NCBI GenBank assembly: GCA_964505555.1
Contig: CAZDIO010000102.1
Span: 13,355 to 77,354, forward strand
DNA: 64,000 nucleotides
Origin: an uncultured Bdellovibrionales bacterium
GTDB lineage: Bacteria > Bdellovibrionota_C > UBA2361 > SZUA-149 > CAZDIO01
Reading direction: 5' to 3'
The notes beneath the pieces were generated by a model that was not told the DNA's origin, ran no database searches, and saw nothing but the letters and a program-made list of their open reading frames with translations. Each line of letters opens with the position of its first letter. The first letter of the stretch is position 1. A program made the position numbers and the translations under genes. Below, piece by piece: positions 33,064-54,516 of the stretch.

Positions 33064-33126
33064 TTGAACACAGAGTTTCACAGGGTTACACAGAGTAAAG
33101 ATTTTAAAATTCAACTCTGTGTTCAA
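33064..33126. repeat. Family A palindromic repeat, copy A1 (right arm shortened)
   Basis: ttgaacacagagtttcacagggttacacagagt aaagattttaaaattca actctgtgttcaa. The right arm lacks the internal gtaaccctgtgaaactct present in other copies. Confidence 0.8.
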
Positions 33127-33171: not shown

Positions 33172-33408
33172 TTATATCCACTCTTTCATCAGTCGTTTGA
33201 TCTGACTCTGATACGGCACATTTTGTAGATCACATTTATGCCGAAACGCAGCAAGAAGGGTCTGGGGAATTTTTATACTAATGAGTTTACTCTTTTCTGG
33301 CCGTTCATTCATGAGCCGAAAATCTTCAAGAAAACGTGCTATTTCATCCGGAGAGAGCTTCTTTGAATGATGAAGATACTCTTTAGAAAAAAACTGAACA
33401 CTTTTCAT
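33172..33408 (-). CDS. BrnA-like ribbon-helix-helix antitoxin-family protein
   Basis: 78 aa. C-terminus ISIKIPQTLLAAFRHKCDLQNVPYQSQIKRLMKEWI resembles the BrnA/CopG-type RHH antitoxin C-terminus. Confidence 0.55.
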   Translation of the reverse strand: MKSVQFFSKEYLHHSKKLSPDEIARFLEDFRLMNERPEKSKLISIKIPQTLLAAFRHKCDLQNVPYQSQIKRLMKEWI

Positions 33409-33414
33409 CTCTTC

Positions 33415-33882
33415 TTACTCTCTACTTAATTCTTGTAGCGCTTCAATATCGGCGAGATCTTGTGGTCGACCCGCTTCTTGTTTCATTCGAATAAGATCTG
33501 ACAATGAAAGAAGGGAGATACTTGTTTGCTGAACCCGAACACGTTTTGTTCTTTGGGTCGAAAGATCATGGGTAATAATGATGTCAACAAGCTCTGCTGG
33601 AGTACGCGGATTTACAAAACTCCATGCAGTAAGGTTTCGATTCTTAATGTACTCCTTTCGAAATTTAAACACCTCTTTGGCGGTGATCGGAAGCTTTGCT
33701 TGAAGGCCGATACTATTTAGCGCCGCTTCCGCCTTTATAAACTGCTCCTCTTCAAAACGAAGAATAATGTCAATGTCGAGCGTTCCTCGTACCGCCCCAT
33801 GAAGAGATACGGCATATCCACCAACAAGTGCATACTTAACGTGGTTCGTATCTAAGGCCTTAATAACGCTTAAAAGAAACAT
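33415..33882 (-). CDS. Nucleotidyltransferase-fold protein (Pol-beta superfamily), putative TA-system partner
   Basis: 155 aa. GGYAVSLHGAVRGTLDIDIIL (GS/GG...D.D NTase signature). 6-nt gap to the downstream RHH gene. Confidence 0.55.
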   Translation of the reverse strand: MFLLSVIKALDTNHVKYALVGGYAVSLHGAVRGTLDIDIILRFEEEQFIKAEAALNSIGLQAKLPITAKEVFKFRKEYIKNRNLTAWSFVNPRTPAELVDIIITHDLSTQRTKRVRVQQTSISLLSLSDLIRMKQEAGRPQDLADIEALQELSRE

Positions 33883-38235: not shown

Positions 38236-39130
38236 GAAAAAAAATGAAACAAAAAAATTTTAAATTAACTTCAAGTCGTTTGTTATTTTGGTACAACGTA
38301 CATCATAGTTCTTCAACAAGAAGTTTTTTTATAAGTACGTACGTTAGGAGAGAAATTATTCAATCTTTCTAGTAAGTTAAGCCAGAAAATTTCTTTCGAT
38401 TCCCGAATCTTTTGGGCTCAGATCACGATGGACTTGAAGTCAATTCACTTGAGCACTTATCTCATTTCATGAGATTTTTATTCTCCTGCCTAACTTTCTT
38501 ACTTCGACTCTCGACATTGTGAAACCAAAAGCGCGAGATTTTTATGTAAGGCTCTCTGGAGCCTCTAACATGAGTCAGATAGCCAAACATTCCGGAGAAA
38601 ACGGTAGGTGGTCACGGTCATTAAGTTAGTTCCTGTCCATAAAAGCCAATTTTGAGTCCAAGGTCGATTGAACGGCCACTACTTCTAAACTTACTCTGTG
38701 GTTTTATAAAATCTTCTTTCAGACCCTTAATGACCGTGGGTAAGAAACTCTATTTTAGTAAAGTCTCTTAGTTCATTACTCGAACCCTTATTTCAATACA
38801 CGCCTATTTGACCATTTTTGGTTATTCCATTTCACGAACAGCAGCCAAACAAAAACCACAAGATATTCTAACATATTGAAATTATTAATATAATCAGATA
38901 TTCGTGGTTTAATTGACCTCCAAAGATCGCATTATTCTGGGAATGTTCGAGCTTCGAAATAAGTACTGATCACGTTTATAAGCGAGCTTTTGAAAGATGA
39001 TTATTTCAAAGCACGCTACTTTTTGGCCACTAGGTAGGTTTCTTTACTGTTTGGAAGCTTTAGTTTAAACCAGTTATTGTTTAATTTAACCTCTGCCAAA
39101 ATCTCAACTCTTGAGTAACGAAGCTGTAAG
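38236..39130. other. About 0.9 kb AT-rich noncoding region between the rep-like gene and parA; candidate replication origin / partition site region
   Basis: No ORF over 60 aa. A-tracts present. Contains a 15-bp inverted repeat (gtcacggtcattaag / cttaatgaccgtg about 100 nt apart) and short direct repeats (agatattc ×2). Confidence 0.3.
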
Positions 39131-39913
39131 GTGGCCATGGCAAAAGTCTTTGCAATAGTGAATCAAAAGGGGGGAGTTGGAAAAACTACCACCGCTGCAA
39201 ATTTGGCCGCCGCGCTATCTGAGCGAGGTCAAAAAGTGCTTGTTATTGATCTTGATGCTCAAGCAAATCTCTCTGCTCATTTTGGAAGTTCCGTAGATGA
39301 TCAGAGTGAGCAGCTTACAATGTATGATGTGCTCAGGCACAACGCCCCGATTGAAAAAGCAATAATAAACCTCTCTTCGAACTTAAGTATCGTTCCTGCA
39401 AGCCTCCTACTAAGTGCTGCAGATTTAGAGCTTGGTGGTGTTATCGGTCGTGAGTTACTTCTTAAAAAAGCTCTTCAACCGGTAATTGATGACTATGATT
39501 ACACGATCATTGATTGCCCACCCTCACTGGGGATGCTCTCCCTCAATGGGCTTGTTGCTGCTTCACGAGTTATCGTTCCTGTTCAAAGTGAGTTTTTAGC
39601 CCTTCACGGCGTAAGGCAGCTTCTTGATACGATTGACCAGGTACGAAGTGCCTACAACCCCTTACTTGCTGTGGGTGGAGTTCTTCTCTGTCTTCATGAT
39701 TCAAGAAGGAGACTGGCGCGGAGTGTTGCCGATACGGTGCGCGAATATTTTGGAGATCTTGTTTTTGAAACTGTCATTCGCACAAACGTTGCCCTTGCTG
39801 AAGCACCTGCCCAGGGGGACTCAATTTTTCAATACGACCGCCGCTCAAGCGGTGCTGAAGATTATGCTAGCCTTGCAGAGGAGATACTAAGCCGTGGCAA
39901 AAAAGAAGGTTAA
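39131..39913 (+). CDS. parA: ParA/Soj-family partition ATPase
   Basis: 260 aa. Deviant Walker A NQKGGVGKTTT. Confidence 0.9.
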   Translation: MAMAKVFAIVNQKGGVGKTTTAANLAAALSERGQKVLVIDLDAQANLSAHFGSSVDDQSEQLTMYDVLRHNAPIEKAIINLSSNLSIVPASLLLSAADLELGGVIGRELLLKKALQPVIDDYDYTIIDCPPSLGMLSLNGLVAASRVIVPVQSEFLALHGVRQLLDTIDQVRSAYNPLLAVGGVLLCLHDSRRRLARSVADTVREYFGDLVFETVIRTNVALAEAPAQGDSIFQYDRRSSGAEDYASLAEEILSRGKKEG

Positions 39914-40814
39914 ATTCAGTGTAAACCCACTTCTTGGGGGACCAAGTCTTGCATCACGAGCAAAGATGGGGAGCCCTTATCGGGAGCTTTTAATCGACGA
40001 GATCGATTTTGATCCTGATCAACCGCGACGAGTATTTAATGAAGAGCGACTTCAAGAGCTCGCTGATTCAATTAAAGAACACGGAATCATCTCACCAATA
40101 CTTGTTAAAGTAACAGAAGGGGGAACCTATAAGCTTGTATCTGGAGAGAGAAGACTTCGTGCCTCAAAAATTGCTGGATTAGAATCGATCCCCGCAGTTA
40201 TTGAAGACGATGATAAAAGTAGTGATGTAACCCTTCCTAAGCAGCTTGTAGAAAATCTCCAACGAGAAGATCTCACCGTAATGGAGAGGGCGATCGCTAT
40301 TGGCCAACTACGAGATGCTTACAAATTGAGCATTCGTGAGATCTCCTCAAAGCTTTCCATTTCAAAAGGACTCGTTCAGAGAAGCCTTGAAGTTCTCGAT
40401 CTCCCAGACGATCTTCAAGCAGCGTTAATAAACGGTGCCTCAGAGACGAAGATTCTCGTTTTAGCGAAAGTTTCGAATCGTGAATTGAGAAAAGAATTTA
40501 TCGCTCAACTTGATAATTTCACCCGAGCACAACTTGAAGAAGAGGTAGATCGGGTTACGACACTCTTAAATGGCGACAAAGAAGAGGTGTACCACGGTGG
40601 TACACCTCGTAGTCGAAAAAATGGAAGAAATAAACTTTCCCCTCAAGATGAGCAGTTAATTAATGATTTAAAAAACAAACTAGGAACAAGAGTTTCTTTA
40701 ATGCGCAGTCGTGGCAAAGAGGGGCAGGGGAAGCTGATGATCGAGTTCTATTCAGATAACGATCTAAGCGAGATCTTTCGACGACTTTGTCGAACCGCTA
40801 GCGATTCTCTTTAA
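39894..40814 (+). CDS. parB: ParB/Spo0J-family partition protein (GTG start)
   Basis: 306 aa. ParB box ISPILVK...YKLVSGERRLRAS. 20-nt overlap with parA. Confidence 0.85.
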   Translation: MAKKKVKFSVNPLLGGPSLASRAKMGSPYRELLIDEIDFDPDQPRRVFNEERLQELADSIKEHGIISPILVKVTEGGTYKLVSGERRLRASKIAGLESIPAVIEDDDKSSDVTLPKQLVENLQREDLTVMERAIAIGQLRDAYKLSIREISSKLSISKGLVQRSLEVLDLPDDLQAALINGASETKILVLAKVSNRELRKEFIAQLDNFTRAQLEEEVDRVTTLLNGDKEEVYHGGTPRSRKNGRNKLSPQDEQLINDLKNKLGTRVSLMRSRGKEGQGKLMIEFYSDNDLSEIFRRLCRTASDSL

Positions 40815-43717: not shown

Positions 43718-43781
43718 TCCAAGTAAACACCTGTTTCTCTCTAGGGCGGGTTGGCTAAAGTACGTCGGGCTGTTTTTTTAA

Positions 43782-43869
43782 TGAACACAGAGTTTCACAG
43801 AGATCCACAGAGTAAAGAAAAAAGCTTTTAGATTTAACTCTGTGTAACCCTGTGAAACTCTGTGTTCAA
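43782..43869. repeat. Family A palindromic repeat, copy A2 (left arm variant agatc for ggtta)
   Basis: tgaacacagagtttcacagagatccacagagt aaagaaaaaagcttttagattta actctgtgtaaccctgtgaaactctgtgttcaa. Confidence 0.85.
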
Positions 43870-44020: not shown

Positions 44021-45376
44021 ATGATCGTTACTGATTCACCATTTCGCACGCAATATAGCGCCAATAACGTTGCAATTCGAAACGGAGCAACAAGTACTAC
44101 GCCGGCGCAATTTAGTAATCTTTCTTTTCTTCGATCGACACCACCTTCTTTACCTTCAAGCAATCTCCTTGCCCCATCAAGTAGCGGAGGATTTGTTTCT
44201 CAAGTGCAGTCGATGCTGCAGCAAGTTTCGGTGCTGATGGATCTCATCGGTGCCGCAAGACAATCAGATCAAAGTGCTGGGGTTAGTCTCCTCGATGGGG
44301 CGAAACTCTTTTCTCAAAATGTTTCTCAGGAGCTTTTTAACCTTCAGACAAGAGGAGGTATCGGAGGGGTTTTTGATGCTGTTCCGACCTCTATAGATAG
44401 TCTTGGTACTGCCGCTCAACAGTACGTTCTTGGGAACCTCAAGCGAGAGTTTTTTGACGCAGTTGGTGAGGCGTTTGGGGTGGATGTTTCACAGCTTTCT
44501 GTAACAGATCTTGCCAATTTGGCTTATGAAAGCGTTTTTGGAGAGGGAACATCGCTCTCTAGTACCCTCTCAGATGGGGTGGCAGGAATCTTCTCCGGTC
44601 AGGATCCCTTTGTAGCAGGAGAACTTAGTGGAGAAATTGGTGGAGAAATAAGCACTGAAGTAGGCGGGGCAACTTCAGGAATTGGCCAATTTACAGGCGC
44701 TTTAGCAACCGCGTATTCTCTCTATGGAATAATTAATGACTGGGGAAAGAGCACCCCAGCCATGGGTGCGATGCGAGGTGCTACGGCTGGAGCGTACATC
44801 GGGAGTATTATTCCAGGAGTTGGAACTCTTATCGGAGGTGCCATCGGTGGGGTTGCGGGGGCGATCTCTGGATTGTTTCATAGTGGGAAGCATAAAAACC
44901 AGATTCAACGCGATCAGGTTCGAGAGTTTTTAAGAAATGCCCAAATTATCGATTCAGATAACTCCCTTCAGTTAGCAAATGGTGAACGTTTTGATATCGG
45001 AAAAGATGGAGGTGCTCGCTATCTTGGACTTGACGGAGTTGAGAGACGACCCTACGTGACTGACCCTTCAAATCCACTTACCGCTGAGGCGATAGGGCTT
45101 GTAAATCCGTTAGCAATAATTCTCACCGGAGGTGATCCTGGACTTTCTTCAGCTTTTGCAGGGTATTTTAGTAATGCCATCGTCAGTAACGCACAAGATC
45201 TCGAAGGCGTCCGCCAAAATGCCTTGGCGATATTCTCAAAATTTCAGGTTACCCCAGAGCAATTGATCGCTGGCTTAGAAAATCTTACTGCCTCCGGCAA
45301 AATCCCCCCAGAAGATTTTGCTGCATACGCAAACGGGGTAAGAACTCTCCTTGAAGGGTTTTCTTCACCTTCATAA
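44021..45376 (+). CDS. Hypothetical protein with central glycine-zipper hydrophobic segment; candidate secreted/translocator-like protein
   Basis: 451 aa, no signal peptide. Ser/Thr-rich N-terminus. Segment AGAYIGSIIPGVGTLIGGAIGGVAGAISGLF (GxxxG repeats). Flanked by family A repeats. Confidence 0.5.
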   Translation: MIVTDSPFRTQYSANNVAIRNGATSTTPAQFSNLSFLRSTPPSLPSSNLLAPSSSGGFVSQVQSMLQQVSVLMDLIGAARQSDQSAGVSLLDGAKLFSQNVSQELFNLQTRGGIGGVFDAVPTSIDSLGTAAQQYVLGNLKREFFDAVGEAFGVDVSQLSVTDLANLAYESVFGEGTSLSSTLSDGVAGIFSGQDPFVAGELSGEIGGEISTEVGGATSGIGQFTGALATAYSLYGIINDWGKSTPAMGAMRGATAGAYIGSIIPGVGTLIGGAIGGVAGAISGLFHSGKHKNQIQRDQVREFLRNAQIIDSDNSLQLANGERFDIGKDGGARYLGLDGVERRPYVTDPSNPLTAEAIGLVNPLAIILTGGDPGLSSAFAGYFSNAIVSNAQDLEGVRQNALAIFSKFQVTPEQLIAGLENLTASGKIPPEDFAAYANGVRTLLEGFSSPS

Positions 45377-45390
45377 GAAGCGTTAGATTA

Positions 45391-45479
45391 TTGAACACAG
45401 AGTTTCACAGGGTTACACAGAGTTTGAACTATCTTACTTATCCCACACTCTGTGTAACCCTGTGAAACTCTGTGTTCAA
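45391..45479. repeat. Family A palindromic repeat, copy A3 (followed by ccttccttttttgc extension)
   Basis: ttgaacacagagtttcacagggttacacagagt ttgaactatcttacttatcccac actctgtgtaaccctgtgaaactctgtgttcaa, then ccttccttttttgc. Confidence 0.9.
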
Positions 45480-45546
45480 CCTTCCTTTTTTGCTCAAAAA
45501 GTTTAAAAACATCTTTACTGCTATATCGAATAGTGATATTAATCTA

Positions 45547-45708
45547 GTGGTGATTCGATCGTACAAAAACATTGGCACACGTGATATTGCTGAGAATTCG
45601 AAAGCAGCGCGGCGACTGTTGCCGCAACCATTTAATGCTCAGTATCGCATTTGCTTTCTTTGGAATGGCATTGATGCTGACGCAGTTGAAATAGTGGATT
45701 ATCACTGA
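45547..45708 (+). pseudogene. higB: HigB-like toxin remnant (internally truncated RelE/ParE-superfamily killer protein)
   Basis: N-terminus VVIRSYKNIG... and C-terminus YRICFLWNGIDADAVEIVDYH match the HigB ends (…RVIFRFEDGDAYDVDYIDYH). The central ~40 residues are missing. The longer ORF from 45472 begins inside repeat A3. Confidence 0.5.
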
Positions 45709-45732
45709 GAGATTACAAAAAAGGGCTTCAGC

Positions 45733-46026
45733 ATGTTGAAACCTAGGCGTGTTATAGCAGTGCATCCTGGAGAGATGCTTGAAGAGGTTCTTAAACAGAA
45801 CAAGATTAGCCAATCTTCCCTTGCCGCTCATCTCGGAGTTACTCAAGCAAAGATCAACGAAATCTGTCGTGGTAAGCGAGGAGTGACGCCAGATATGGCG
45901 ATGAAGTTCGGTAAAGCTTTTGGACAGAGCCCAATGTTTTGGATAAATATCCAAAAAAATTGGGAGATGAGCCAGCTCGATGAATCTGATTACAAAGACA
46001 TACAACGGATAAAATGTCGTGCGTAG
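45733..46026 (+). CDS. higA: HigA-family antitoxin (XRE-type HTH)
   Basis: 97 aa. HPGEMLEEVLKQNKISQSSLAAHLGVTQAKINEICRGKRGVTPDMAMKFGKAFG matches the HigA/VapI HTH. Confidence 0.85.
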   Translation: MLKPRRVIAVHPGEMLEEVLKQNKISQSSLAAHLGVTQAKINEICRGKRGVTPDMAMKFGKAFGQSPMFWINIQKNWEMSQLDESDYKDIQRIKCRA

Positions 46027-46142
46027 AAAGCAAGTAAAAGGATTTTACTGGACTTCTGCTGATGCACGGCGACTGCATTTGCTCTCTATTTGAATCCCGA
46101 CTGAGGATCTGGAGAGTTTTATTAAATTACAGCTTATGATTA

Positions 46143-46232
46143 TTGAACACAGAGTTTCACAGGGTTACACAGAGTGTGGGAATAATTAAGATAATTTAAA
46201 CTCTGTGTAACCCTGTGAAACTCTGTGTTCAA
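46143..46232. repeat. Family A palindromic repeat, copy A4 (followed by ccttccctttttgc extension)
   Basis: ttgaacacagagtttcacagggttacacagagt gtgggaataattaagataatttaa actctgtgtaaccctgtgaaactctgtgttcaa, then ccttccctttttgc. Confidence 0.9.
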
Positions 46233-46482
46233 CCTTCCCTTTTTGCCTGTGGGCATGTGGAGTTACCGATTGCTCTAAGAAAAATCATTGATGAAGGCCA
46301 ATTAAGCTGAGGCAAATTGCCTCAGTAGATTCAAAATGCATCAGCGATCATTATTCTAACCCTCTGAAACTGTTCAGATCTTCTTTCACACCAAAGTTGG
46401 CATGACCTTGCAATAGAAACGGTAGGTTCTTGCTACAGGTTCTTTTTGTTTTTTAGTCAGAAAACTTAGCAAGGAGGACTTT

Positions 46483-47196
46483 GTGGTGAAAGGGACAACG
46501 GAAAAATTAACTGAAGAGCAGATTCCCCTCGTAATTGAAAATATTCTTTATGCAAAAAAACTGGCGAGGCAGTTTTATCAACAACGAAGCCACTTCGGTT
46601 TCGATGTTGAGGATTTTGAAGGCGCAGCATTGTTTGGATTATGTGACGCTGCAAGGAGGTTTGAGCCTGATAAGACACTTCATTTTAGAACATTTTCCTA
46701 TTTTCGCATTCGGGGTGCGATGTATGATCTGCTGCGACATGGGGGGGGAATTTCGAAGAAACACTTCAAGTGTTTCATTGAAAATCGAAATCAAACGGGA
46801 GAGGGGACAAAACCTCGAGCAGAGGAAGAAGGGAGCCTCCCCTATTCATTTGCAAGAACTGCTGAGGAGTTATCGAGCATTATTGCCACGATTGAAGAGA
46901 TCGATATCGCTGTGCATGTCAGCACGGACAGCGAGATTCCTGAACTCAGCTACGCACGAGACCTAAATCCTGAAGAGATCAATACCATTCGTGCAACCCG
47001 GTCCTATATTAGAAAACTTATCTCTCAACTTCCCACTGAACAACGAACCGTAATTGAACTTCGCTACTACAATGGCGCTACCTTTGATGAAATTAGCGCA
47101 AATCTCGGTGGGCACTCACGGAGTTGGGTTTCACGAACCCATGTTCGAGCTCTTGATAATTTGCGAGGGATGATTCTTAGCGAAAGGAGAGTGTAA
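46483..47196 (+). CDS. Sigma-70-family sigma factor, FliA/sigma-28-like
   Basis: 237 aa. Region 2 (FEGAALFGLCDAARRFEPDKTLHFRTFSYFRIRGAMYD) and region 4 HTH (VIELRYYNGATFDEISANLGGHSRSWVSRTHVRALDNLR). RBS AAGGAGGA. Stop overlaps the sctJ start (TAATG). Confidence 0.8.
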   Translation: MVKGTTEKLTEEQIPLVIENILYAKKLARQFYQQRSHFGFDVEDFEGAALFGLCDAARRFEPDKTLHFRTFSYFRIRGAMYDLLRHGGGISKKHFKCFIENRNQTGEGTKPRAEEEGSLPYSFARTAEELSSIIATIEEIDIAVHVSTDSEIPELSYARDLNPEEINTIRATRSYIRKLISQLPTEQRTVIELRYYNGATFDEISANLGGHSRSWVSRTHVRALDNLRGMILSERRV

Positions 47197-48131
47197 TGAC
47201 ATCCTCAAAATGGAAAGGAATTTTTCTTGCGCTCGTAGCGTTTTTTCAGGTCAGTTGTAAAGAGACCGTTCTTCATAACTTAGATGAGGTGCGAGCCAAT
47301 CAGGTAAAAGTAACACTAGAGAAACGAGGAATTACTGCGCAAAAGCTTTTTGAAGGGAGCGGATGGAGTATTCGAGTCAAGCGTGCTGACGAAACAGAGG
47401 CACTCTCGATTCTTGAAGAAAGCAGAGTTCTCAAACGGAATCTCCGAACCCCGATAGAACCACCAAAGGGGCTTATTCCAAGCCGAGAGGAACGAGCATC
47501 ATTTTCAGAACGGCAACTGGCGGCAAGTTTAGAAAGTACTCTTGAGCGCTTACCCTATGTGCTAGAAGCTCGAGTTCATCTGAACTTAAATGCCGAAGAG
47601 AACCTTCAAATGGTTTTGCCAAAAGAGGGCCATACGGGAAGTGCTCTGATTGTCACCGATGATCATATGCCTGATCATTTAGCAATTCAAAAATCTCAAG
47701 TACAACAACTCATTGCAGGAGCATCAGGAGTAAACCCACAATCAATCTCGGTAGTAATCGCCAAAGCAAGTGCTGAAAACTACGCAGAGCCACAGATCCA
47801 TAAAGTAGCAAAGCCAGTAGAGACGACGAAAAAAGATACTCCCTCCCATTCTCCATCGTGGATAAAAAAGCTGATAGTGCATGCTCGACAGTATCAAACA
47901 TTTTTAATCTATCTCGCTGGGGTATTAATTGCAGTTCTTGCACTCCGATTGATTTTTCGAAAAAACCCATTTCGAAGTGAGCAAACAATACCGAGTTTTC
48001 AAATGCCTCCTCTGAAGAACTCAAAAAATACCGTCTCCTCTGGTGTTCTGGTCAACGGTACCCAACACGGAAATGGCAGTCAGTTTAAACTGCAACCAAA
48101 CAAACAACATGAAACATTGGAGGTGTACTAA
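47196..48131 (+). CDS. sctJ: Type III secretion inner-membrane ring lipoprotein SctJ (YscJ/PrgK/CdsJ family)
   Basis: 311 aa. Signal plus Cys (FFQVSCKE), then LDEVRANQVKVTLEKRGITAQKL...ETEALSILEESRV (YscJ-like secretin/ring-building motif pair). Single C-terminal TM (FLIYLAGVLIAVLALRLIF). Confidence 0.75.
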   Translation: MTSSKWKGIFLALVAFFQVSCKETVLHNLDEVRANQVKVTLEKRGITAQKLFEGSGWSIRVKRADETEALSILEESRVLKRNLRTPIEPPKGLIPSREERASFSERQLAASLESTLERLPYVLEARVHLNLNAEENLQMVLPKEGHTGSALIVTDDHMPDHLAIQKSQVQQLIAGASGVNPQSISVVIAKASAENYAEPQIHKVAKPVETTKKDTPSHSPSWIKKLIVHARQYQTFLIYLAGVLIAVLALRLIFRKNPFRSEQTIPSFQMPPLKNSKNTVSSGVLVNGTQHGNGSQFKLQPNKQHETLEVY

Positions 48132-48132
48132 G

Positions 48133-48408
48133 ATGATGGCTTCTTCTTTAAATATCCATTGCTCACGGCGATGTGAATTGCTTCTCTGCTTAAGTTATCT
48201 CCTTACCCCAGAAGCAGTTACTTCCATCGCCTCAAAATTAGCAACCAATCGCGATCAAGCCGCGAGAAACCTTGCTCAGGCGATGATGTCACTCTCTCCT
48301 CAGTATGTACGAGACCTGAGTTTAAAAACACTTGCCAATGCCGGAATGAGTATCGGTAATTATAAAAACCAAACGCATGCTCACGGGGTAGCCTCGAGGA
48401 AGTTGTAA
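48133..48408 (+). CDS. Small T3SS-locus protein (hypothetical)
   Basis: 91 aa from ATG immediately after the sctJ stop. The longer ORF from 48043 overlaps sctJ. No motif. Confidence 0.3.
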   Translation: MMASSLNIHCSRRCELLLCLSYLLTPEAVTSIASKLATNRDQAARNLAQAMMSLSPQYVRDLSLKTLANAGMSIGNYKNQTHAHGVASRKL

Positions 48409-48409
48409 A

Positions 48410-49333
48410 ATGAAAGAGAACGACAACAATACGTTTGTTGCTGTAATCAGAGCAAAACTTCAAGCAGGGGGGCGCACTCTCGCATCAACGGAAAATGCAC
48501 CACTGCATACACTACGATTTCGGATGATGGCAAATCAATTTCTCTCTATTCTTTCTTCGTTACTTTCTTTACATCTTACAAAGGAAGTTCATATCTCACT
48601 TGATGAGTCATCAACCTTTCCTCGATCACCTGAAGAGGGGTGCGATGGAGAACAGGTGATCGTGAATCTTCGAGTGTATCATCAAAATATACAACTTGTT
48701 TTACCCGGAGAGCTTGTTCATGACCTTGGTGCTTACGTCCTTCATAAGATGCCAACAGCGGTAATCTCTTCTCTCACGAACGAAGAGATTACCGCTGTGA
48801 GTTTCTTAATCGCTTCAGTCCTTGCTGATCGAGCGCTCTCGAAACAACGAATCTACCTCTCTTCAGTGCACAAAAAATGTAACGAAGAAAAACAAGAGAC
48901 CTCAAAACGCGATCGAGAACAAAATCAGCAACTCTGTGTATCAGCCACGGTTGATAAGAGTCACTACCGAGTGCTCGTACGTATCCCCGAGGAGCTTGTT
49001 GGGCGTTTAGAAAGTTATGGGAAATTAATCTTTCATAGGGAACAAACAACACGTCTTCTTTCAAGGGTGTTTGCGCAGTGGTCGCTGCAACTTCGACTCA
49101 ACGTAGGATCGCTTCACGGTCTTACTGCGCTAAAAGAAGGTCAACGTTTTCCACTTACAGAGTCTACGGGGGCACTTTTTTCTCCAAGCCCTCTCTGTGG
49201 TGAAGAAGGGGTAGCGGTTGAAATACTTTCTGCAAGTATTCCTGGACTTTTAAAATTACGAATTAGGGGAGAAAAAGATTTATATCAACGCACTCAATGG
49301 AGGAATAATGACCAGAGAAGATGCCCACAGTAA
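48410..49333 (+). CDS. sctQ: SctQ-like protein, N-terminal part of a split cytoplasmic-ring/sorting-platform protein (contains a SpoA-like C-terminal segment)
   Basis: 307 aa. C-terminal LQLRLNVGSLHGLTALKEGQRFPL...VAVEILSASIPGLLKLRI fits the SpoA/FliN-fold pattern. Overlaps the next SpoA gene by 26 nt. Confidence 0.45.
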   Translation: MKENDNNTFVAVIRAKLQAGGRTLASTENAPLHTLRFRMMANQFLSILSSLLSLHLTKEVHISLDESSTFPRSPEEGCDGEQVIVNLRVYHQNIQLVLPGELVHDLGAYVLHKMPTAVISSLTNEEITAVSFLIASVLADRALSKQRIYLSSVHKKCNEEKQETSKRDREQNQQLCVSATVDKSHYRVLVRIPEELVGRLESYGKLIFHREQTTRLLSRVFAQWSLQLRLNVGSLHGLTALKEGQRFPLTESTGALFSPSPLCGEEGVAVEILSASIPGLLKLRIRGEKDLYQRTQWRNNDQRRCPQ

Positions 49334-49673
49334 TGAATTGTTTAGAGAATTTACAAATCACCATACCCAGACGATGAACCAAAATGGGGAATCGGCTCGT
49401 GAAATAAAGCGAGAAAGCGGCTCATTGCTTACATTGCAGCAAGCAAAATTTCTTTCAGAGATACAGGTTGGGCTTGATGTCGAGATCGGAAAACTCTCCA
49501 TCCCAGCAGATAAACTCATTGATCTCCTTCCTGGGCAAACATTTGAGTTTGAGTTTGATCCGCTTCTAGAGGTTTCGCTCTCACTGGGAGGAGAAAAGAT
49601 AGCAAAAGCTAAATTCATGCTTGATGGAGAGACGCTCTATCTTGAAGTGAGCTCAGTAAAAACCACTTTATGA
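49308..49673 (+). CDS. SpoA/FliN/SctQ-C domain protein (separate C-terminal SctQ gene)
   Basis: 121 aa. VGLDVEIGKLSIPADKLIDLLPGQTFEFEFDPLLEVSLSLGGEKIAKAKFMLDGETLYLEV is the classic SpoA domain. Confidence 0.7.
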   Translation: MTREDAHSNELFREFTNHHTQTMNQNGESAREIKRESGSLLTLQQAKFLSEIQVGLDVEIGKLSIPADKLIDLLPGQTFEFEFDPLLEVSLSLGGEKIAKAKFMLDGETLYLEVSSVKTTL

Positions 49674-49768
49674 CAAAACCGATCGGAAACCATTGATGGA
49701 AATAAACGATAATACGTACGAGACCTAAAAACTGTTGTGAATTAATTGAATTAATAAGGAGAAATAAC

Positions 49769-50071
49769 ATGTCAGATGTAGCCTCGGCGCTTTTTAATAT
49801 CGGAAGTGTTGTGCGTGAAACCGCAAGTTACTTACCAGAACCTGCAACGCAAGGCGTTAGTATGTTTTCTGACGTTATGGATATCGTAAAAAGCCTCACC
49901 GGTAATGGTGTTGGTGGAGTTCCTACCGAGATCGGCGGGGACTTTATGGAACTTCTTGAATTGCAGATTCAAACTCAGCTTGAGCTTCAGACGGTATCAA
50001 TGGTGTCAAACGTTGAGAAGTCTGAACACGAATCAAAGATGGCTGCGATTCGAAACGTTCGCGTAAACTAA
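49769..50071 (+). CDS. Small T3SS-associated protein, needle/inner-rod (SctF/SctI)-like candidate
   Basis: 100 aa, helical. C-terminus ...KMAAIRNVRVN. Position between sctQ and sctV. RBS AAGGAGA. Confidence 0.3.
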   Translation: MSDVASALFNIGSVVRETASYLPEPATQGVSMFSDVMDIVKSLTGNGVGGVPTEIGGDFMELLELQIQTQLELQTVSMVSNVEKSEHESKMAAIRNVRVN

Positions 50072-50099
50072 AACAAGAAAATTAGATTGGAGAAATACT

Positions 50100-50417
50100 A
50101 TGGCCGTATCAAGTGTAACCACCGCTGCACCTCAAACAGCCGAAGGAAAAGCAGCAAAGAGTGAAGGTGAAGATAAAAAGGAGCGCACCTCTCAGGTGAA
50201 CCAATGGGGAAAAGAGATCCTTGATTTAAAAACCTCAAATGCGCGTCTTCTTGAGATCGTTGAAGCAGCAACAAAAGAGGCAAATGATAGCCCCTGGGTG
50301 ATGAACATGATTGAAAAGTTCATCGGTCAACGGGCGGTAAAGGGTGCCGCTGTTTCAAACATGATTCAAGCAATCATGGAAACGATGAAACGAATCGCTA
50401 ATAATATTGGGCGTTAG
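50100..50417 (+). CDS. Small T3SS-associated protein, needle/inner-rod (SctF/SctI)-like candidate
   Basis: 105 aa. C-terminus VSNMIQAIMETMKRIANNIGR resembles needle-family C-termini (…IIQNFR-like). RBS GGAGAAA. Confidence 0.3.
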   Translation: MAVSSVTTAAPQTAEGKAAKSEGEDKKERTSQVNQWGKEILDLKTSNARLLEIVEAATKEANDSPWVMNMIEKFIGQRAVKGAAVSNMIQAIMETMKRIANNIGR

Positions 50418-50428
50418 TTTCTGATTCC

Positions 50429-52507
50429 ATGAGGCAGCACGCCAAAATACGCGATATTTTACTCCCTATCGCTGTTGTTGCGGTAGTAGGGATGATGATT
50501 TTTCCTTTACCATCAGGAGTGCTCGATGCGCTCCTGATGGTAAATATCGCGTTTTCTTTAGTTCTTCTGGTAAGTTCTGTTTATCTTTCTGAACCAAGAC
50601 ACTTTACCTCCCTTCCAGCGATCCTTCTCCTCTCCACTCTTTTTCGCTTAGGATTAAACGTTTCAACAACACGACAGATTCTTGGTCATGCCGAGGCACC
50701 TGAGATTATTGTTGCCTTTGGTTCTTTTGTTGTAACTGGAAGTTTAATTGTCGGTGCGGTGGTATTTTTGATTATCACCGTAGTGCAGTTTCTAGTGATC
50801 ACCAAGGGGGCAGAGAGAGTTGCTGAGGTTGCCGCGAGATTTACCCTCGATGCGATGCCTGGAAAACAGATGGCGATTGATGCTGATGTGCGTTCAGGTT
50901 CCATTAGTGTTGAAGAGGCAAAGGAGCGAAGGCTTGAATTACAACAGGAATCAAAACTCTACGGTGCCCTTGATGGGGCGATGAAGTTTATCAAAGGGGA
51001 CGCAATTGCTGGTTTGATCATCATCGTTATTAATATCACCGCAGGCCTTGCTGTGGGGGTAACACAGATGGGGCTTAGTTTTTCAGAGGCTCTTCATAAG
51101 TACACCCTCTATACGATTGGTGATGGCCTTGTTTCACAACTTCCGGCACTTCTTGTCTCTGTGGCAGCGGGGATTGTAATTACCAGGGTTGAAAATAAAA
51201 GTGGGGCTTTTCTCGGAAGAGATATCTTTGTTCAACTCGGTGCAGAACCTCAAGCCGTGGCCACCAGTGGAGGAGTGCTTCTTCTTCTCTCACTTGTTCC
51301 TGCGTTGCCAGGAATTCCTTTTTTTGTTGTTGGGGTAATTCTTCTTTCTCTTGCAAGAAAGACAAGTCTTCGACAGAAAAGCTCTGAACAGGGAAGGACA
51401 GATTCAGAGTTTCGACCAAAGGTATTTTCTCCACTCGTTTTAGTTCTCTCCCCCGGAGCTGCCGTTCTTCTTCAACGGCTCGGCACCCTTCCCAAGGCGA
51501 TTCATCAATTACGAAGCGAGATGTTTCAAAAATGGGGGGTGATTGTTCCCGATGTCCAATTTGATCTAGAAAAAGGGGAGAGTGAGATCGCTCTCTGGGT
51601 TACTCTTCATGGAGTGCAAGTTGATTCGCTTCGTGGAGATGAAAAAGATTCTGGAGTTTTTGTTGAGAAAACTATTCAATGCTTACAACAGTCCATTGAA
51701 GCTCATCTTTCTGAACTCATCGATGATACGCAAACAAGAATGCTTCTTGAGGTTCATCAAAGCGTTGCCGAGGATCTGATCAATAGTGTCATTCCTGAGA
51801 TGTTGAGTATTACGGCGCTCACGACAATTCTTCGGCAGTTAGTTATTGAGGGGATCCATATTCGTCAGATGCGTTCGATCCTCCAAGCCGTAGCAGAATC
51901 TCATCTTCGCGAGCAGGAGATGAGCCTTTCACTCCCGAGTGCTTCCGGTGCAAATTCACAACGTCTGCAACTTTTAGGGAAGAAAGAAGGAGCGACAAGG
52001 CAAGGACGAGAGCTCCTTGCTGATGTGAGAATCTCTTTAAAGCGAGTTATTTCAAAACAGATCACGGATGATAATTGGAATTTACAAGCCTTCATCTGTG
52101 CGCCTCTTTTGGAACAGATATTTTCCTCTCCCGTTGCCCTTGGAGCGCCCATTGAACCGGGAATACGTGAAAGCATTTTGAATCAGATTAATAAAGCATT
52201 CTCTACACAAAATACCCCCACAAAAGTTCTCTTAACTTCTAAACAGTCACGAACAAATCTCTTCAACCTGATTCGTTTTGACTGTCCAATGGTCTCAGTT
52301 ATCGCAATTGATGAGCTGGCTCCTGAAGTGACGCTCAGTATTCTTGGGGAGATAAAATTAGAAACTGGAGAGACAGCAGACAGTGAGGAGCAGGAAGGGG
52401 GCAAGAGTAAGAAGATTCAGGAAGAGACTCAAGCTAAACCGGAGCGGAGAGTTTTTCGAAATGTTTCTGAAGTGAGAACAAAAGATTCTCAGAAGATCGC
52501 AGCATAA
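50429..52507 (+). CDS. sctV: Type III secretion export-gate protein SctV (LcrD/InvA/CdsV family; injectisome-type rather than FlhA)
   Basis: 692 aa. FLVITKGAERVAEVAARFTLDAMPGKQMAIDAD, AMKFIKGDAIAGLIIIVIN and TIGDGLVSQLPALL match the LcrD/YscV variants (SLDAMPGKQM, FVKGDAIAGLIII, GDGMVSQVPALL) more closely than the FlhA variants (VLDGMPGKQM, FVRGDAIAGILIM). Confidence 0.85.
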   Translation: MRQHAKIRDILLPIAVVAVVGMMIFPLPSGVLDALLMVNIAFSLVLLVSSVYLSEPRHFTSLPAILLLSTLFRLGLNVSTTRQILGHAEAPEIIVAFGSFVVTGSLIVGAVVFLIITVVQFLVITKGAERVAEVAARFTLDAMPGKQMAIDADVRSGSISVEEAKERRLELQQESKLYGALDGAMKFIKGDAIAGLIIIVINITAGLAVGVTQMGLSFSEALHKYTLYTIGDGLVSQLPALLVSVAAGIVITRVENKSGAFLGRDIFVQLGAEPQAVATSGGVLLLLSLVPALPGIPFFVVGVILLSLARKTSLRQKSSEQGRTDSEFRPKVFSPLVLVLSPGAAVLLQRLGTLPKAIHQLRSEMFQKWGVIVPDVQFDLEKGESEIALWVTLHGVQVDSLRGDEKDSGVFVEKTIQCLQQSIEAHLSELIDDTQTRMLLEVHQSVAEDLINSVIPEMLSITALTTILRQLVIEGIHIRQMRSILQAVAESHLREQEMSLSLPSASGANSQRLQLLGKKEGATRQGRELLADVRISLKRVISKQITDDNWNLQAFICAPLLEQIFSSPVALGAPIEPGIRESILNQINKAFSTQNTPTKVLLTSKQSRTNLFNLIRFDCPMVSVIAIDELAPEVTLSILGEIKLETGETADSEEQEGGKSKKIQEETQAKPERRVFRNVSEVRTKDSQKIAA

Positions 52508-52528
52508 TCTTAGCGCGCTGTATGGGAG

Positions 52529-53146
52529 GTGAAAATGAATATATCTTATAGAAAAATCTCTCTTCATCATTTAGCACTCTGGAGTTTTGTCTGTTTCATT
52601 CTTTTCTTGAGTACTGGCTGTATTTACCGAAATAAAAATAGCCTTACGGCTCATGAAGCCGTAACTCGGGAAACAAAGATGAAGTCACTCCTTGCTTTTA
52701 GTGTTTCACAGCTTCGAATCGGAGATGAAGTGGCACTTGATCGCGCCTATGCAACGCTTGAGCTTGCACGAGAGTTAGACCCAAACGATGCACGAGTGTT
52801 TGATGGTTTAGGAAGTGTGGAATGGCGTCGCGAAGGGTATAAGTTAGCGGAGTTCTACTTTAAAAAAGCGGTATCTCTTGATCCTAACTATTCTCGTCCG
52901 TATGCACATCTTTCGCTTGTTGCAGAAAGAAATGGTGATTATCAGGCAGCAAAAGAGCTCCTTCTAAAATCTCTTGAACTTAATCCTCTTAATTACCGGG
53001 CAAGAAACAACTACGCCGCCCTTCTTGTTCGTTACGGAAATCAAACAAGTAATGAACAAACGGCGTACTATGAGTTTCTAAAAGTTGCCCGAGGTGCTTC
53101 AAAAGAAGATCCCGTTCTTCAGTATAATCTAGGTCGGTTTGAGTAG
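52529..53146 (+). CDS. TPR-repeat lipoprotein
   Basis: 205 aa. Signal plus LSTGC lipobox. At least three TPR units (AYATLELARELDPNDARVF..., AEFYFKKAVSLDPNYSRPY..., AKELLLKSLELNPLNYRAR...). Confidence 0.6.
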   Translation: MKMNISYRKISLHHLALWSFVCFILFLSTGCIYRNKNSLTAHEAVTRETKMKSLLAFSVSQLRIGDEVALDRAYATLELARELDPNDARVFDGLGSVEWRREGYKLAEFYFKKAVSLDPNYSRPYAHLSLVAERNGDYQAAKELLLKSLELNPLNYRARNNYAALLVRYGNQTSNEQTAYYEFLKVARGASKEDPVLQYNLGRFE

Positions 53147-53183: not shown

Positions 53184-53271
53184 TTGAACACAGAGTTTCA
53201 CAGGGTTACACAGAGTAAAGAGAAGAGATTTTAAATTTAACTCTGTGTAACCCTGTGAAACTCTGTGTTCA
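53184..53271. repeat. Family A palindromic repeat, copy A5
   Basis: ttgaacacagagtttcacagggttacacagagt aaagagaagagattttaaattta actctgtgtaaccctgtgaaactctgtgttca. Confidence 0.9.
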
Positions 53272-53329
53272 TACCAGAAGCTAAATGGACCTACTCTAGC
53301 CTTACAATTCAAAACTTGCTAAGTATTCA

Positions 53330-54337: not shown

Positions 54338-54379
54338 GTTAAATATTGATATGTTAAATGTTTGCGAGTGTTTTTAGGA

Positions 54380-54457
54380 TGAACACAGAGTTCAACAGAG
54401 GAAAGAAAACAAACCAATAATTTTAACTCTGTGAAACCCTGTGAAACTCTGTGTTCA
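54380..54457. repeat. Family A palindromic repeat, copy A6 (diverged)
   Basis: gaacacagagttcaacagagg aaagaaaacaaaccaataatttta actctgtgaaaccctgtgaaactctgtgttca. Confidence 0.75.
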
Positions 54458-54516
54458 TTATAAAGAAACTAATCAATACTTACGGAATCCTTTTTTGGGA
54501 ATGATGTTCAATCTGA

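What the first reader, a model, noticed from the sequence alone, without database searches (positions are those of the whole stretch)
45391..46252. higBA cassette bracketed by two directly repeated, extended family-A copies; HigB appears internally deleted
Copies A3 (45391-45479 + ccttccttttttgc) and A4 (46143-46232 + ccttccctttttgc) share the hairpin plus ~10 nt on each flank (gattattgaa... and ...ccttccYtttttgc). They are therefore ~110-bp direct repeats flanking a ~660-bp segment that encodes only HigB-like and HigA. HigB retains the family N-terminus (VIRSYKNIG) and C-terminus (…VDYH) but lacks the ~40 central residues, so it is probably a toxin remnant paired with an intact HigA. This fits a TA addiction cassette inserted or mobilised between repeat copies inside the T3SS locus. 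Recombination between the flanking repeats could delete the cassette.
Basis: partly seen in the sequence, partly recalled or inferred. Interest (0 to 1): 0.6.

Follow-up and report, generated by a model that had tools for sequence, protein, structure and literature searches.

The report
Decayed higBA cassette between palindromic repeats
A horizontally acquired toxin-antitoxin gene pair whose toxin gene has lost its middle sits between two copies of a short palindromic repeat that also fills the neighbouring gene gaps; this is ordinary genome litter, not a demonstrated mobile unit.

Summary
Two sister copies of a palindromic repeat (45379-45493 and 46131-46246) flank about 640 bp that carry only a HigB remnant and an intact HigA. 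Their identity extends beyond the hairpin, 10/13 nt on the left and 13/14 nt on the right. They are not plain direct repeats, because the 23/24-nt loops are inverted relative to each other.

HigB is a remnant of 53 aa. It aligns to 96-98-aa HigB proteins as two blocks, and two in-frame deletions (6 and 129 nt) remove about residues 29-71. Close HigA homologues (73-76% identical) pair with 98-aa HigB.

The closest relative available (L203) has the 451-aa gene directly followed by the sigma/T3SS operon, with a 190-bp gap, no higBA and no hairpin. The block is therefore an insertion of about 0.9 kb, just upstream of a conserved sigma54-type promoter.

Mobilisation by the repeats is not shown. The same repeat family fills all five gaps between transcription units from 43.5 to 54.5 kb and also brackets conserved genes. 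A second pair of copies shares its own extended flank. No target-site duplication, integrase or transposase was found, and higBA modules elsewhere lack such repeats. The repeat family itself, built of 10-nt CACAGRGTTW units, seems undescribed.

The parts
44021..45376 (+). Conserved 451-aa glycine-zipper gene; left neighbour of the insertion
   Evidence: ORF. It is 63% identical over 243 aa to the gene directly upstream of the sigma gene in L203. Only weak glycine-zipper Pfam hits.
45379..45493 (.). Repeat copy A3: left flank AGCGTTAGATTAT, 33-nt arm, 23-nt loop, 33-nt arm, right flank CCTTCCTTTTTTGC
   Evidence: It begins only a few nt after the stop codon of the 451-aa gene (the hairpin itself 15 nt after it). 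Its loop is inverted relative to A4 (I1).
45506..45546 (+). higBA promoter/operator remnant: TTTACT, palindrome CTATATCGAATAG (45521-45533), and a -10 region carrying a 2-nt deletion
   Evidence: It aligns with CTATAC-N-GTATAG plus TATAAT upstream of full-length higBA in L206-L209. It is the only such site in the window. Promoter function is inferred and was not detected by the consensus scan.
45547..45708 (+). higB remnant, 53 aa, with in-frame deletions of 6 nt and 129 nt (about residues 29-71 of 98 are lost)
   Evidence: Two-block matches to 96-98-aa proteins: query 1-~27 and 28-52 against protein 1-~41 and 74-98. Protein alignment shows a 44-column gap. DNA alignment to L207/L208 higB. C-terminus matches GraT 6f8s_B residues 74-98. 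No Pfam or NCBIfam hit.
45733..46026 (+). higA, intact 97-aa HigA-family antitoxin (HTH_3/XRE)
   Evidence: TIGR02607 at 82.8 bits, profile positions 4-79 of 81. PF01381. PDB HigA/GraA chains at E 1e-11 to 1e-14. Nearest homologues are 77-80% identical and also 97 aa.
46027..46130 (.). 104-nt spacer of unknown origin between higA and A4
   Evidence: No similarity to the sequence downstream of higA in L205, L206, L208 or L209.
46131..46246 (.). Repeat copy A4: left flank AGCTTATGATTAT, 33-nt arm, 24-nt loop, 33-nt arm, right flank CCTTCCCTTTTTGC
   Evidence: The Logan contig L001 of the same organism breaks inside its right arm.
46306..46482 (+). Native intergenic region of the sigma/T3SS operon, with a sigma54-type promoter TGGCAT-N5-TTGCA at 46398-46412
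   Evidence: It aligns with the 190-bp intergenic region of L203, which carries TGGCAC-N5-TTGCA.
46483..47196 (+). FliA/WhiG-like sigma factor, first gene of the conserved T3SS operon; right neighbour of the insertion
   Evidence: The operon order is conserved in L202-L204.
43781..43869 (.). Repeat copy A2 (other subfamily), between hemB and the 451-aa gene
   Evidence: Its right flank CTAAATG..CTAG is shared with A5.
53184..53272 (.). Repeat copy A5 (same subfamily as A2), between the TPR gene that ends the T3SS operon and the GT2 gene
33064..33126 (.). Repeat copy A1; its right arm is shortened by 20 nt
54379..54458 (.). Repeat copy A6, degenerate, in opposite orientation, between convergent GT2 and mannosyltransferase genes

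Best explanation
An insertion of about 0.9 kb lies in the short spacer between a conserved 451-aa gene and the sigma54-dependent promoter of the sigma/T3SS operon, in an uncultured Bdellovibrionota-like bacterium. Its core is a compact type II higBA module, with its own promoter and operator, that was acquired horizontally and is now decaying. The toxin gene has lost 43+2 codons in frame, removing most of the RelE-like fold. The -10 region and the operator are damaged. HigA is intact, and I infer that it survives as an orphan autorepressor or antitoxin.

The two flanking units are sister copies of a palindromic dispersed repeat that was found only in this genome. It resembles REP or MITE elements. 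Each arm consists of three 10-nt CACAGRGTTW units, and the full unit is about 115 bp. The family has colonised every gap between transcription units in this region. The bracketing therefore most likely reflects two insertions, or a local spread, of the same subfamily into the two new intergenic gaps created by the cassette, rather than a mechanism that delivered the cassette.

Shown: the repeats, the flank identity, the loop inversion, the HigB deletion, the intact HigA, the empty site in a relative, and the repeat distribution. Inferred: the order of events, loss of toxin activity, loop flipping by intra-hairpin template switching, and a possible terminator or insulator effect of the hairpin plus T-run.
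For: - Repeats and flanks.
- HigB remnant. Other short HigB forms in the database have different deletion end points (P0041, P0044, P0042, P0067), which indicates recurrent independent decay.
- HigA intact.
- Horizontal origin: HigA is 73-80% identical to proteins from unrelated sources, including a Chloroflexi MAG. The promoter, operator and higB DNA align at about 73% column identity with L207/L208. By contrast, the neighbouring sigma factor has no relative above 51% identity.
- Empty site: L203.
- Repeats are not cassette-specific. Copies sit in all five gaps of 150 nt or more between units from 43.5 to 54.5 kb, and they bracket a conserved gene, the conserved operon, and the GT2 gene that is 55% identical to the L202 GT2. 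A2 and A5 share their own flank.
- The A3/A4 loops differ at about 4 of 24 positions, similar to the A2/A5 loops (4 of 23). The A3/A4 pair is therefore no younger than the family as a whole.
- higBA modules elsewhere have no CACAG palindromes.
- None of the Pfam-scanned ORFs (all of those of 250 aa or more) is an integrase or transposase.
Against: - A3 and A4 are each other's closest relatives in both flanks and loop, and they are adjacent. A local duplication or a Campbell-type integration would produce exactly this.
- Only 64 kb of one genome is available, so it cannot be tested whether the A3/A4 flanks are a genome-wide subfamily trait.
- The only relative showing the empty site is distant (51-63% protein identity), so the order of cassette arrival and repeat arrival cannot be resolved.
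- With two subfamily-1 copies among six sites, adjacency by chance has probability about 1/3, which favours neither model.
Confidence: 0.6

Rival explanations
1. The repeats mobilised the cassette. A circular or linear segment carrying higBA plus one family-A unit integrated by recombination into a resident family-A copy behind the 451-aa gene. That leaves the cassette between two direct sister copies, and the reverse reaction would delete it.
For: A3 and A4 are sister copies with shared flanks and related loops, and they are adjacent. The cassette promoter begins only about 12 nt after the A3 unit. Perfect direct runs of 38-39 nt exist. The whole block A3-higBA-A4 is absent from L203.
Against: Bracketing is the rule for every unit in this region, conserved genes included. 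The A2/A5 pair also shares extended flanks without enclosing a cassette-sized segment. The loops are inverted and about 17% diverged, so this is not a recent clean duplication. No recombinase lies nearby. Homologous higBA modules elsewhere lack such repeats, as does the vapBC-like pair in the relative L202.
Confidence: 0.22
2. Assembly chimera. In a short-read metagenome assembly, the higBA segment, which is truly flanked by family-A copies somewhere else in the same genome, was threaded into the T3SS locus through the identical 33-39-nt arms.
For: The source appears to be an uncultured-organism contig of 81 kb. A k=31 Logan assembly of the same organism breaks exactly inside the A4 arm. The exact HigA and 451-aa proteins are not on record in any other assembly.
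Against: A3 and A4 differ in loop and flanks, so k-mers longer than about 40 resolve them. GC content is continuous across the junctions. No direct sign of a misjoin was found.
Confidence: 0.07
3. The family-A hairpins are attC-like recombination sites, and [higBA + hairpin] is an integron-type gene cassette.
For: TA cassettes are typical residents of chromosomal integrons (established knowledge). The hairpin ends ATTGAAC...GTTCAAC resemble RYYYAAC...GTTRRRY at 6/7 positions each (read). Three consecutive segments between copies are of cassette size.
Against: The stems are perfect, with no extrahelical bases or unpaired central spacer. No tyrosine recombinase was found among the Pfam-scanned ORFs, which include all of those of 250 aa or more. 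One interval is a conserved 7-kb operon, and other intervals hold conserved genes. The cassette carries its own promoter. Copy orientations are mixed.
Confidence: 0.03
4. The 52/53-aa HigB-like protein is a genuine, functional short family member rather than a remnant.
For: Proteins of similar length exist, such as P0044 (52 aa) and P0041 (54 aa). The deletions here are in frame and the ORF is open.
Against: The short forms have different deletion end points, so they are not a conserved architecture. The closest HigA homologues pair with 98-aa HigB. The remnant has lost about residues 29-71 and has no PF05015 or NCBIfam hit. The promoter and operator are also damaged.
Confidence: 0.03

Closest known systems
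HigBA / GraTA type II toxin-antitoxin modules (HigB PF05015, HigA TIGR02607; structure 6f8s)
   Same: The gene order is toxin first, then an XRE-type HigA. HigA is full length. The N- and C-terminal blocks of the toxin are 62-67% identical to 96-98-aa HigB proteins. The upstream palindromic operator and -10 are shared with full-length modules.
   Different: The toxin lacks about residues 29-71 and fails the family model. The operator has 2 mismatches and the -10 has a 2-nt deletion. A 14-nt insertion lies before higA. The module is therefore a decayed one with an orphan antitoxin.
REP / REPIN elements of proteobacteria (mobilised by RAYT transposases)
   Same: Short intergenic palindromes of about 90-115 bp with inverted arms and a short spacer. 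They are present in many copies, have no target-site duplication, sit at operon ends, and form subfamilies.
   Different: Each arm is three direct 10-nt units rather than an imperfect REP palindrome. No RAYT (Y1 transposase) gene was found in the window. Copy number in the whole genome is unknown.
MITEs such as Correia/NEMIS, ERIC and RUP, and MITE-flanked composite units (for example integrons or resistance genes between two MITE copies)
   Same: The repeats have terminal inverted arms, lie in intergenic positions, and could in principle move a gene caught between two copies.
   Different: No target-site duplication flanks either a single copy or the composite (read). No parent IS was identified. 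The arms occupy almost the whole element.
TA cassettes in chromosomal integrons (Vibrio superintegron higBA, relBE and parDE between VCR/attC sites)
   Same: A small TA module lies between two near-identical structured repeats, and the hairpin ends weakly resemble the attC core sites.
   Different: The hairpins are perfect and lack the attC bulges. There is no integrase, no attI and no array, and conserved operons lie between other copies.

Membership tests
HigB / RelE-like toxin (Pfam PF05015) | Scores above the family threshold over the RelE-like domain of about 90 aa | tested here: not met
   No Pfam or NCBIfam hit at E up to 0.1. The full-length partner of a close HigA homologue (L207) scores 40.2 bits against a cutoff of 27.
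HigB / RelE-like toxin (Pfam PF05015) | Descent from the family: collinear similarity to full-length members | tested here: met
   37 hits at E up to 1e-3. Most are 96-98 aa and match as two blocks, N-terminal and residues 74-98. Identity over aligned residues is 62-67%. DNA alignment shows in-frame gaps of 6 and 129 nt.
HigB / RelE-like toxin (Pfam PF05015) | Ribosome-dependent mRNA cleavage and growth inhibition | not testable with these tools
   Loss of activity is inferred from loss of about 45% of the fold. No assay was possible.
HigA antitoxin (NCBIfam TIGR02607) | Equivalog-level score over the full model, plus the HTH_3 domain | tested here: met
   82.8 bits against a cutoff of 47.7, profile positions 4-79 of 81. 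PF01381 at 36 bits. PDB HigA/GraA at E 1e-11 to 1e-14.
HigA antitoxin (NCBIfam TIGR02607) | Encoded immediately downstream of a higB gene, with an upstream operator | tested here: met
   It lies 24 nt after the higB remnant. The operator-like palindrome at 45521-45533 is homologous to that of L206-L209.
Integron gene cassette / attC | Imperfect hairpin with extrahelical bases and an unpaired central spacer between the R''/L'' and L'/R' sites | tested here: not met
   The 33-bp stems are perfect in A4 and 97% paired in A3, with no bulges.
Integron gene cassette / attC | Adjacent intI tyrosine recombinase, attI, and a co-oriented cassette array | tested here: not met
   No PF00589-type protein among the Pfam-scanned ORFs, which include all of those of 250 aa or more in the 64 kb. 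The intervals between copies include a conserved 7-kb operon. The rest of the genome was not seen.
REP / REPIN | Many dispersed intergenic copies of a short palindrome arranged as inverted doublets | tested here: inconclusive
   Six copies lie in 21 kb, all intergenic. Only 64 kb of the genome is available, and the arms are triple direct units rather than REP-type palindromes.
REP / REPIN | A cognate RAYT (Y1 transposase) gene in the genome | not testable with these tools
   None in the window. The genome is in neither the genome nor the metagenome collection.
MITE / composite MITE unit | Terminal inverted repeats plus a target-site duplication flanking the element or the composite | tested here: not met
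   Inverted arms are present. The sequences just outside single copies, and outside the A3...A4 composite, are not duplicated.
Rfam RNA families | Score at or above a family gathering threshold | tested here: not met
   Only sub-threshold generic miRNA-precursor hairpin hits, 45.6 bits at most against thresholds of 51 or more.

The most novel reading that the evidence does not exclude
The family-A palindromes (three 10-bp-phased CACAGRGTTW units per arm) are recognition sites for an unidentified recombinase or ssDNA-hairpin transposase. That enzyme would capture and shuffle small accessory modules such as higBA at operon boundaries. This would be a cassette system distinct from integrons, with related palindromes spread through many uncultured bacteria.
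Probability: 0.05. Interest if true: 0.7.

Novelty: new member of a known kind. Interest (0 to 1): 0.25.

Why it matters
The main value is for annotation. The HigB-like ORF should be marked as a pseudogene or remnant, and HigA as an orphan antitoxin. The block is an accessory insertion at the 5' edge of a T3SS operon and not part of that operon.

Decayed TA modules with a surviving antitoxin are common, and so are intergenic palindromic repeats. The less ordinary element is the repeat family itself. Its arms are built of 10-bp-phased CACAGAG units and are perfectly conserved, while its loops and flanks drift. It is densely clustered around one locus. Look-alike palindromes occur in unrelated metagenomes, and I found no description of them in Rfam or in the searched literature. 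If a binding protein or transposase for these units were found, it would define a new class of REP/MITE-like element.

Tried and rejected
- Exact 24-mer of the repeat arm against GTDB species genomes and JGI metagenomes: 0 matches in each. No other copy or strain could be recovered, so the genome-wide census was not possible.
- Look-up of the exact HigA and 451-aa proteins in public assemblies: not on record. The sigma factor gave only a 1.4-kb Logan contig that ends inside A4. No population variant or empty-site allele of the same species was found.
- Degenerate pattern CACAGNGTTN x3 in metagenomes: 120 loci, of which 13 are strict palindromes (about a dozen with a loose partner arm among the first 80 loci). 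The hits are preselected by the pattern, so they show a similar architecture, not proven homology. No neighbouring gene family recurs.
- Rfam: only sub-threshold miRNA-hairpin matches.
- Literature string search: nothing.
- Repeats around the vapBC-like pair in the relative L202: none.
- CACAG palindromes in the T3SS loci of relatives (L002-L081, L202-L204) and in other higBA loci (L205-L211): none.
- Consensus promoter/terminator scan: it called neither the higBA promoter nor the hairpins as terminators. The terminator or insulator role remains an inference.
- HigA operator-like sites elsewhere in the window (testing co-option as a T3SS regulator): only the cassette's own site, which equals chance expectation.
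- Base composition: no anomaly across the cassette.
- Inversion between inverted arms of A3 and A4 as the cause of the loop inversion: rejected on paper, because it would also invert the inner flanks, which are direct.
Full report
THE OBSERVATION

The 28-nt arm CACAGAGTTTCACAGGGTTACACAGAGT occurs 10 times in the window at up to 3 mismatches, where none is expected by chance. A shorter degenerate probe adds only the same sites. The hits resolve into four full palindromes and two decayed ones:
- A2, 43781-43869
- A3, 45391-45479
- A4, 46143-46232
- A5, 53184-53272
- A1, 33064-33126, whose right arm has lost 20 nt
- A6, about 54379-54458, degenerate and in opposite orientation

Each arm consists of three direct 10-nt units, CACAGAGTTT / CACAGGGTTA / CACAGAGT. 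As single strands the copies fold into 33-bp stems of about -37 to -39 kcal/mol, with z-scores of -12 to -14; A2, which has three arm mismatches, folds more weakly (-27.7 kcal/mol, z = -9).

A3 and A4 share sequence beyond the hairpin. On the left the flanks are AGCGTTAGATTAT and AGCTTATGATTAT. On the right they are CCTTCCTTTTTTGC and CCTTCCCTTTTTGC (D1 and D2). In ungapped 20-nt flanks they match at 12/20 on the left and 15/20 on the right. Random 20-mer pairs from the window reach these values with frequencies of about 1.4e-3 and 3e-5, and no other ungapped pair of copies exceeds 10/20.

One correction is needed. The loops of A3 and A4 are reverse complements of each other (I1: 54 nt, 93% complementary). 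When one loop is inverted they match at about 20 of 24 positions. Each unit is thus two directly repeated blocks of 47-48 nt around a flipped loop. The longest perfect direct runs are 38-39 nt.

THE CASSETTE

HigA (45733-46026, 97 aa) is complete. It scores 82.8 bits on TIGR02607 against a cutoff of 47.7, covering profile positions 4-79 of 81. It has an HTH_3 domain and matches solved HigA and GraA structures at E = 1e-11 to 1e-14.

The HigB-like ORF has no Pfam or NCBIfam hit. An exhaustive phmmer search of 1.84 billion representative proteins gave 37 hits at E up to 1e-3. Most are proteins of 96-98 aa matched in two separate stretches: the N-terminal part of the query against protein residues 1 to about 41, and query residues 28-52 against protein residues 74-98. 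The protein alignment shows a 44-column internal gap plus a 2-residue gap, with 62-67% identity over what remains. The C-terminal block also matches GraT (6f8s_B) residues 74-98.

The closest HigA homologues are 73-76% identical and include one from a Chloroflexi MAG. They sit 10-11 nt downstream of a 98-aa PF05015 HigB. That HigB scores 40.2 bits on PF05015.

A DNA alignment with those genes shows the following:
- The homologous start codon is the GTG at 45547, so the remnant is 53 aa.
- There are two in-frame deletions, of 6 nt and 129 nt, which remove about residues 29-71.
- A 14-nt insertion lies before higA.
- The upstream operator and promoter (CTATAC-N-GTATAG followed by TATAAT in the relatives) are present, but with two mismatches in the palindrome and a 2-nt deletion in the -10.

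Short HigB-like proteins do exist elsewhere: P0041 (54 aa), P0044 (52 aa), P0042 (63 aa) and P0067 (69 aa). Their deletion end points all differ. This is the pattern expected from repeated independent decay of the toxin gene, not from a conserved short family.

WHERE IT SITS

The source appears only as one 81-kb NCBI contig. The best non-self hit of the neighbouring sigma factor is 51% identical, and the nearest named relatives are Bdellovibrionales/Bdellovibrionota MAGs.

Three contigs from relatives keep the same operon: sigma, SctJ, two small genes, SctQ-like, two small genes, SctV, TPR. The sigma gene is therefore the first gene of the T3SS operon.

In L203, the closest relative, the homologue of the 451-aa gene (63% identical over 243 aa) is followed after only 190 bp by the sigma gene. 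There is no higBA and no hairpin there. That 190-bp spacer aligns with window positions about 46306-46482. It includes a sigma54-type -24/-12 element, TGGCAC-N5-TTGCA in L203 and TGGCAT-N5-TTGCA at 46398-46412 in the window.

The block from about 45377 to about 46300 (A3, higB remnant, higA, a 104-nt spacer of unknown origin, and A4) is thus an insertion of about 0.9 kb. It lies directly behind the stop codon of the 451-aa gene and upstream of the operon's native promoter. Homology with foreign higBA modules begins about 12 nt after the A3 unit and ends at the higA stop codon.

The horizontal origin of the cassette fits the identity values. HigA is 73-80% identical to proteins from unrelated sources, whereas the neighbouring genes have no relative above 51-63%. 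Base composition shows no anomaly.

DO THE REPEATS MOBILISE THE CASSETTE?

This is the weak part of the interpretation, for six reasons.
1. Family-A copies occupy all five gaps of 150 nt or more between transcription units from 43.5 to 54.5 kb. A2 and A3 bracket the conserved 451-aa gene. A4 and A5 bracket the whole conserved operon. A5 and A6 bracket a GT2 gene that is 55% identical to the GT2 following the operon in L202. Being bracketed is the local rule, not a mark of a mobile unit.
2. Extended flanks are not unique to A3 and A4. A2 and A5 share a right flank of their own, CTAAATG..CTAG, at about 15/20 after a 3-nt shift. This suggests subfamilies of a longer unit.
3. The A3/A4 loops differ at about 4 of 24 positions and are inverted. 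The A2/A5 loops differ at 4 of 23. The A3/A4 pair is therefore no younger than the family at large.
4. No target-site duplication surrounds either copy or the composite.
5. No integrase, transposase or Y1 enzyme was found among the ORFs scanned with Pfam, which include every ORF of 250 aa or more and most ORFs of 150 aa or more.
6. Homologous higBA modules elsewhere carry no CACAG palindromes, and neither does the vapBC-like pair that a relative carries between the TPR and GT2 genes.

On the other side, A3 and A4 are each other's nearest relatives and are adjacent. A Campbell-type integration of a [cassette + repeat] circle into a resident copy would produce this arrangement. With two such copies among six sites, chance adjacency has probability about 1/3, so this observation does not decide the matter.

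Deletion of the cassette through the perfect direct runs of 38-39 nt is physically plausible but untested.

The loop inversion is best explained by intra-hairpin template switching, which is an inference from established behaviour of long palindromes. Inversion between arms of different copies is excluded because the inner flanks are direct.

WHAT THE REPEAT IS

The exact arm is absent from 185,579 species genomes and from the JGI metagenome collection. A degenerate pattern for three phased CACAG units finds palindromes of similar build and similar termini in unrelated metagenome contigs: (T)TCAACACAGAG...CTCTGTGTTGAA there, against TTGAACACAGAG...CTCTGTGTTCAA here. One is nested inside another (L197), and one lies between trpE-like and trpG-like genes (L088). 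These hits were preselected by the pattern, and no neighbouring gene family recurs.

Rfam gives only sub-threshold miRNA-hairpin matches, and no paper in the library contains these strings. The family therefore behaves like a REP/REPIN- or MITE-like intergenic palindrome without a known mobilising enzyme.

Two features remain unexplained. The arms are perfectly identical while the loops and flanks diverge, and all copies are confined to 33-54.5 kb of the window. The T-run 6 nt after the stem in A3 and A4 could help terminate the 451-aa and higA transcripts and shield the sigma54 promoter. The consensus scan did not call it, so this remains an inference.

OTHER READINGS

- An attC/integron reading fails. 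The hairpins are perfect, there is no integrase, conserved operons lie between copies, and the cassette has its own promoter.
- A functional short HigB is very unlikely, for the reasons given above.
- An assembly chimera through the identical arms cannot be excluded without reads. A k=31 assembly does break in A4. However, the copies differ enough in loop and flanks to be resolved by longer k-mers.
- Co-option of HigA as a T3SS regulator finds no support. The only operator-like site in the window is the cassette's own.

VERDICT

This is a decaying, horizontally acquired higBA module flanked by two members of a dispersed palindromic repeat, a new member of known kinds and of low-to-moderate interest. 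Most of that interest lies in the undescribed repeat family.

Noticed in passing
window 46398-46412 (and L203 about 860-875): A sigma54-type -24/-12 promoter (TGGCAT-N5-TTGCA) lies about 70 nt upstream of the FliA-like sigma gene that opens the T3SS operon. It is conserved as TGGCAC-N5-TTGCA in the closest relative. This suggests a cascade from sigma54 to a FliA-like sigma to the T3SS.
   Followed up: partly
window 46483-53146; L202, L203, L204: A compact operon (FliA-like sigma, SctJ, two unknown genes, an SctQ/FliN-like gene, two small genes, SctV, a TPR protein) is conserved in uncultured Bdellovibrionota-like contigs. The window also encodes a flagellin (30396-31259).
   Followed up: partly
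window 36658-40814: A RepA-like replication initiator (PF10134, minus strand) and divergent ParA/ParB genes are separated by an 896-bp gap. This plasmid- or chromid-like replication module sits on the same contig as heme, isocitrate dehydrogenase and O-antigen genes.
   Followed up: no
window 33172-33882 (minus strand), next to repeat copy A1 (33064-33126): A second small TA-like pair lies here: a DUF6036 nucleotidyltransferase (155 aa) and a 78-aa protein with a weak CopG-antitoxin match (24.1 bits, below the cutoff of 28). It is adjacent to a decayed family-A copy.
   Followed up: partly
L202 14253-14944: A relative carries an 84-aa gene plus a PIN-domain gene (vapBC-like) between the TPR and GT2 genes, exactly where the window has repeat copy A5. 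TA modules therefore land at different boundaries of the same conserved locus in this lineage. No flanking repeats are present there.
   Followed up: yes
metagenome loci L086, L088, L101, L107, L117, L150, L182, L183, L197, L200: Palindromes built of 10-nt CACAGAGTTN units with AT-rich loops occur in many unrelated metagenome contigs. One is nested inside another (L197), and one lies between trpE-like and trpG-like genes (L088). No common neighbouring gene, no Rfam family and no literature hit were found.
   Followed up: partly
proteins P0041, P0042, P0044, P0067: Other genomes hold HigB remnants of 52-69 aa that keep the N- and C-terminal blocks but have different internal deletion end points. 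Loss of the central part of HigB appears to be a recurrent route of toxin inactivation.
   Followed up: partly
window 33064-33126 (A1): The right arm of copy A1 has lost exactly 20 nt between two CTCTGTG units. This is consistent with slippage between the 10-nt units.
   Followed up: no
window 33064-54458 versus the rest of the window: All six family-A copies lie within 21.4 kb. None lies in the other 42 kb, which includes the 27-kb polysaccharide gene cluster with several gaps of comparable size. The arms are 100% identical in A3, A4 and A5, while the loops and flanks differ.
   Followed up: no
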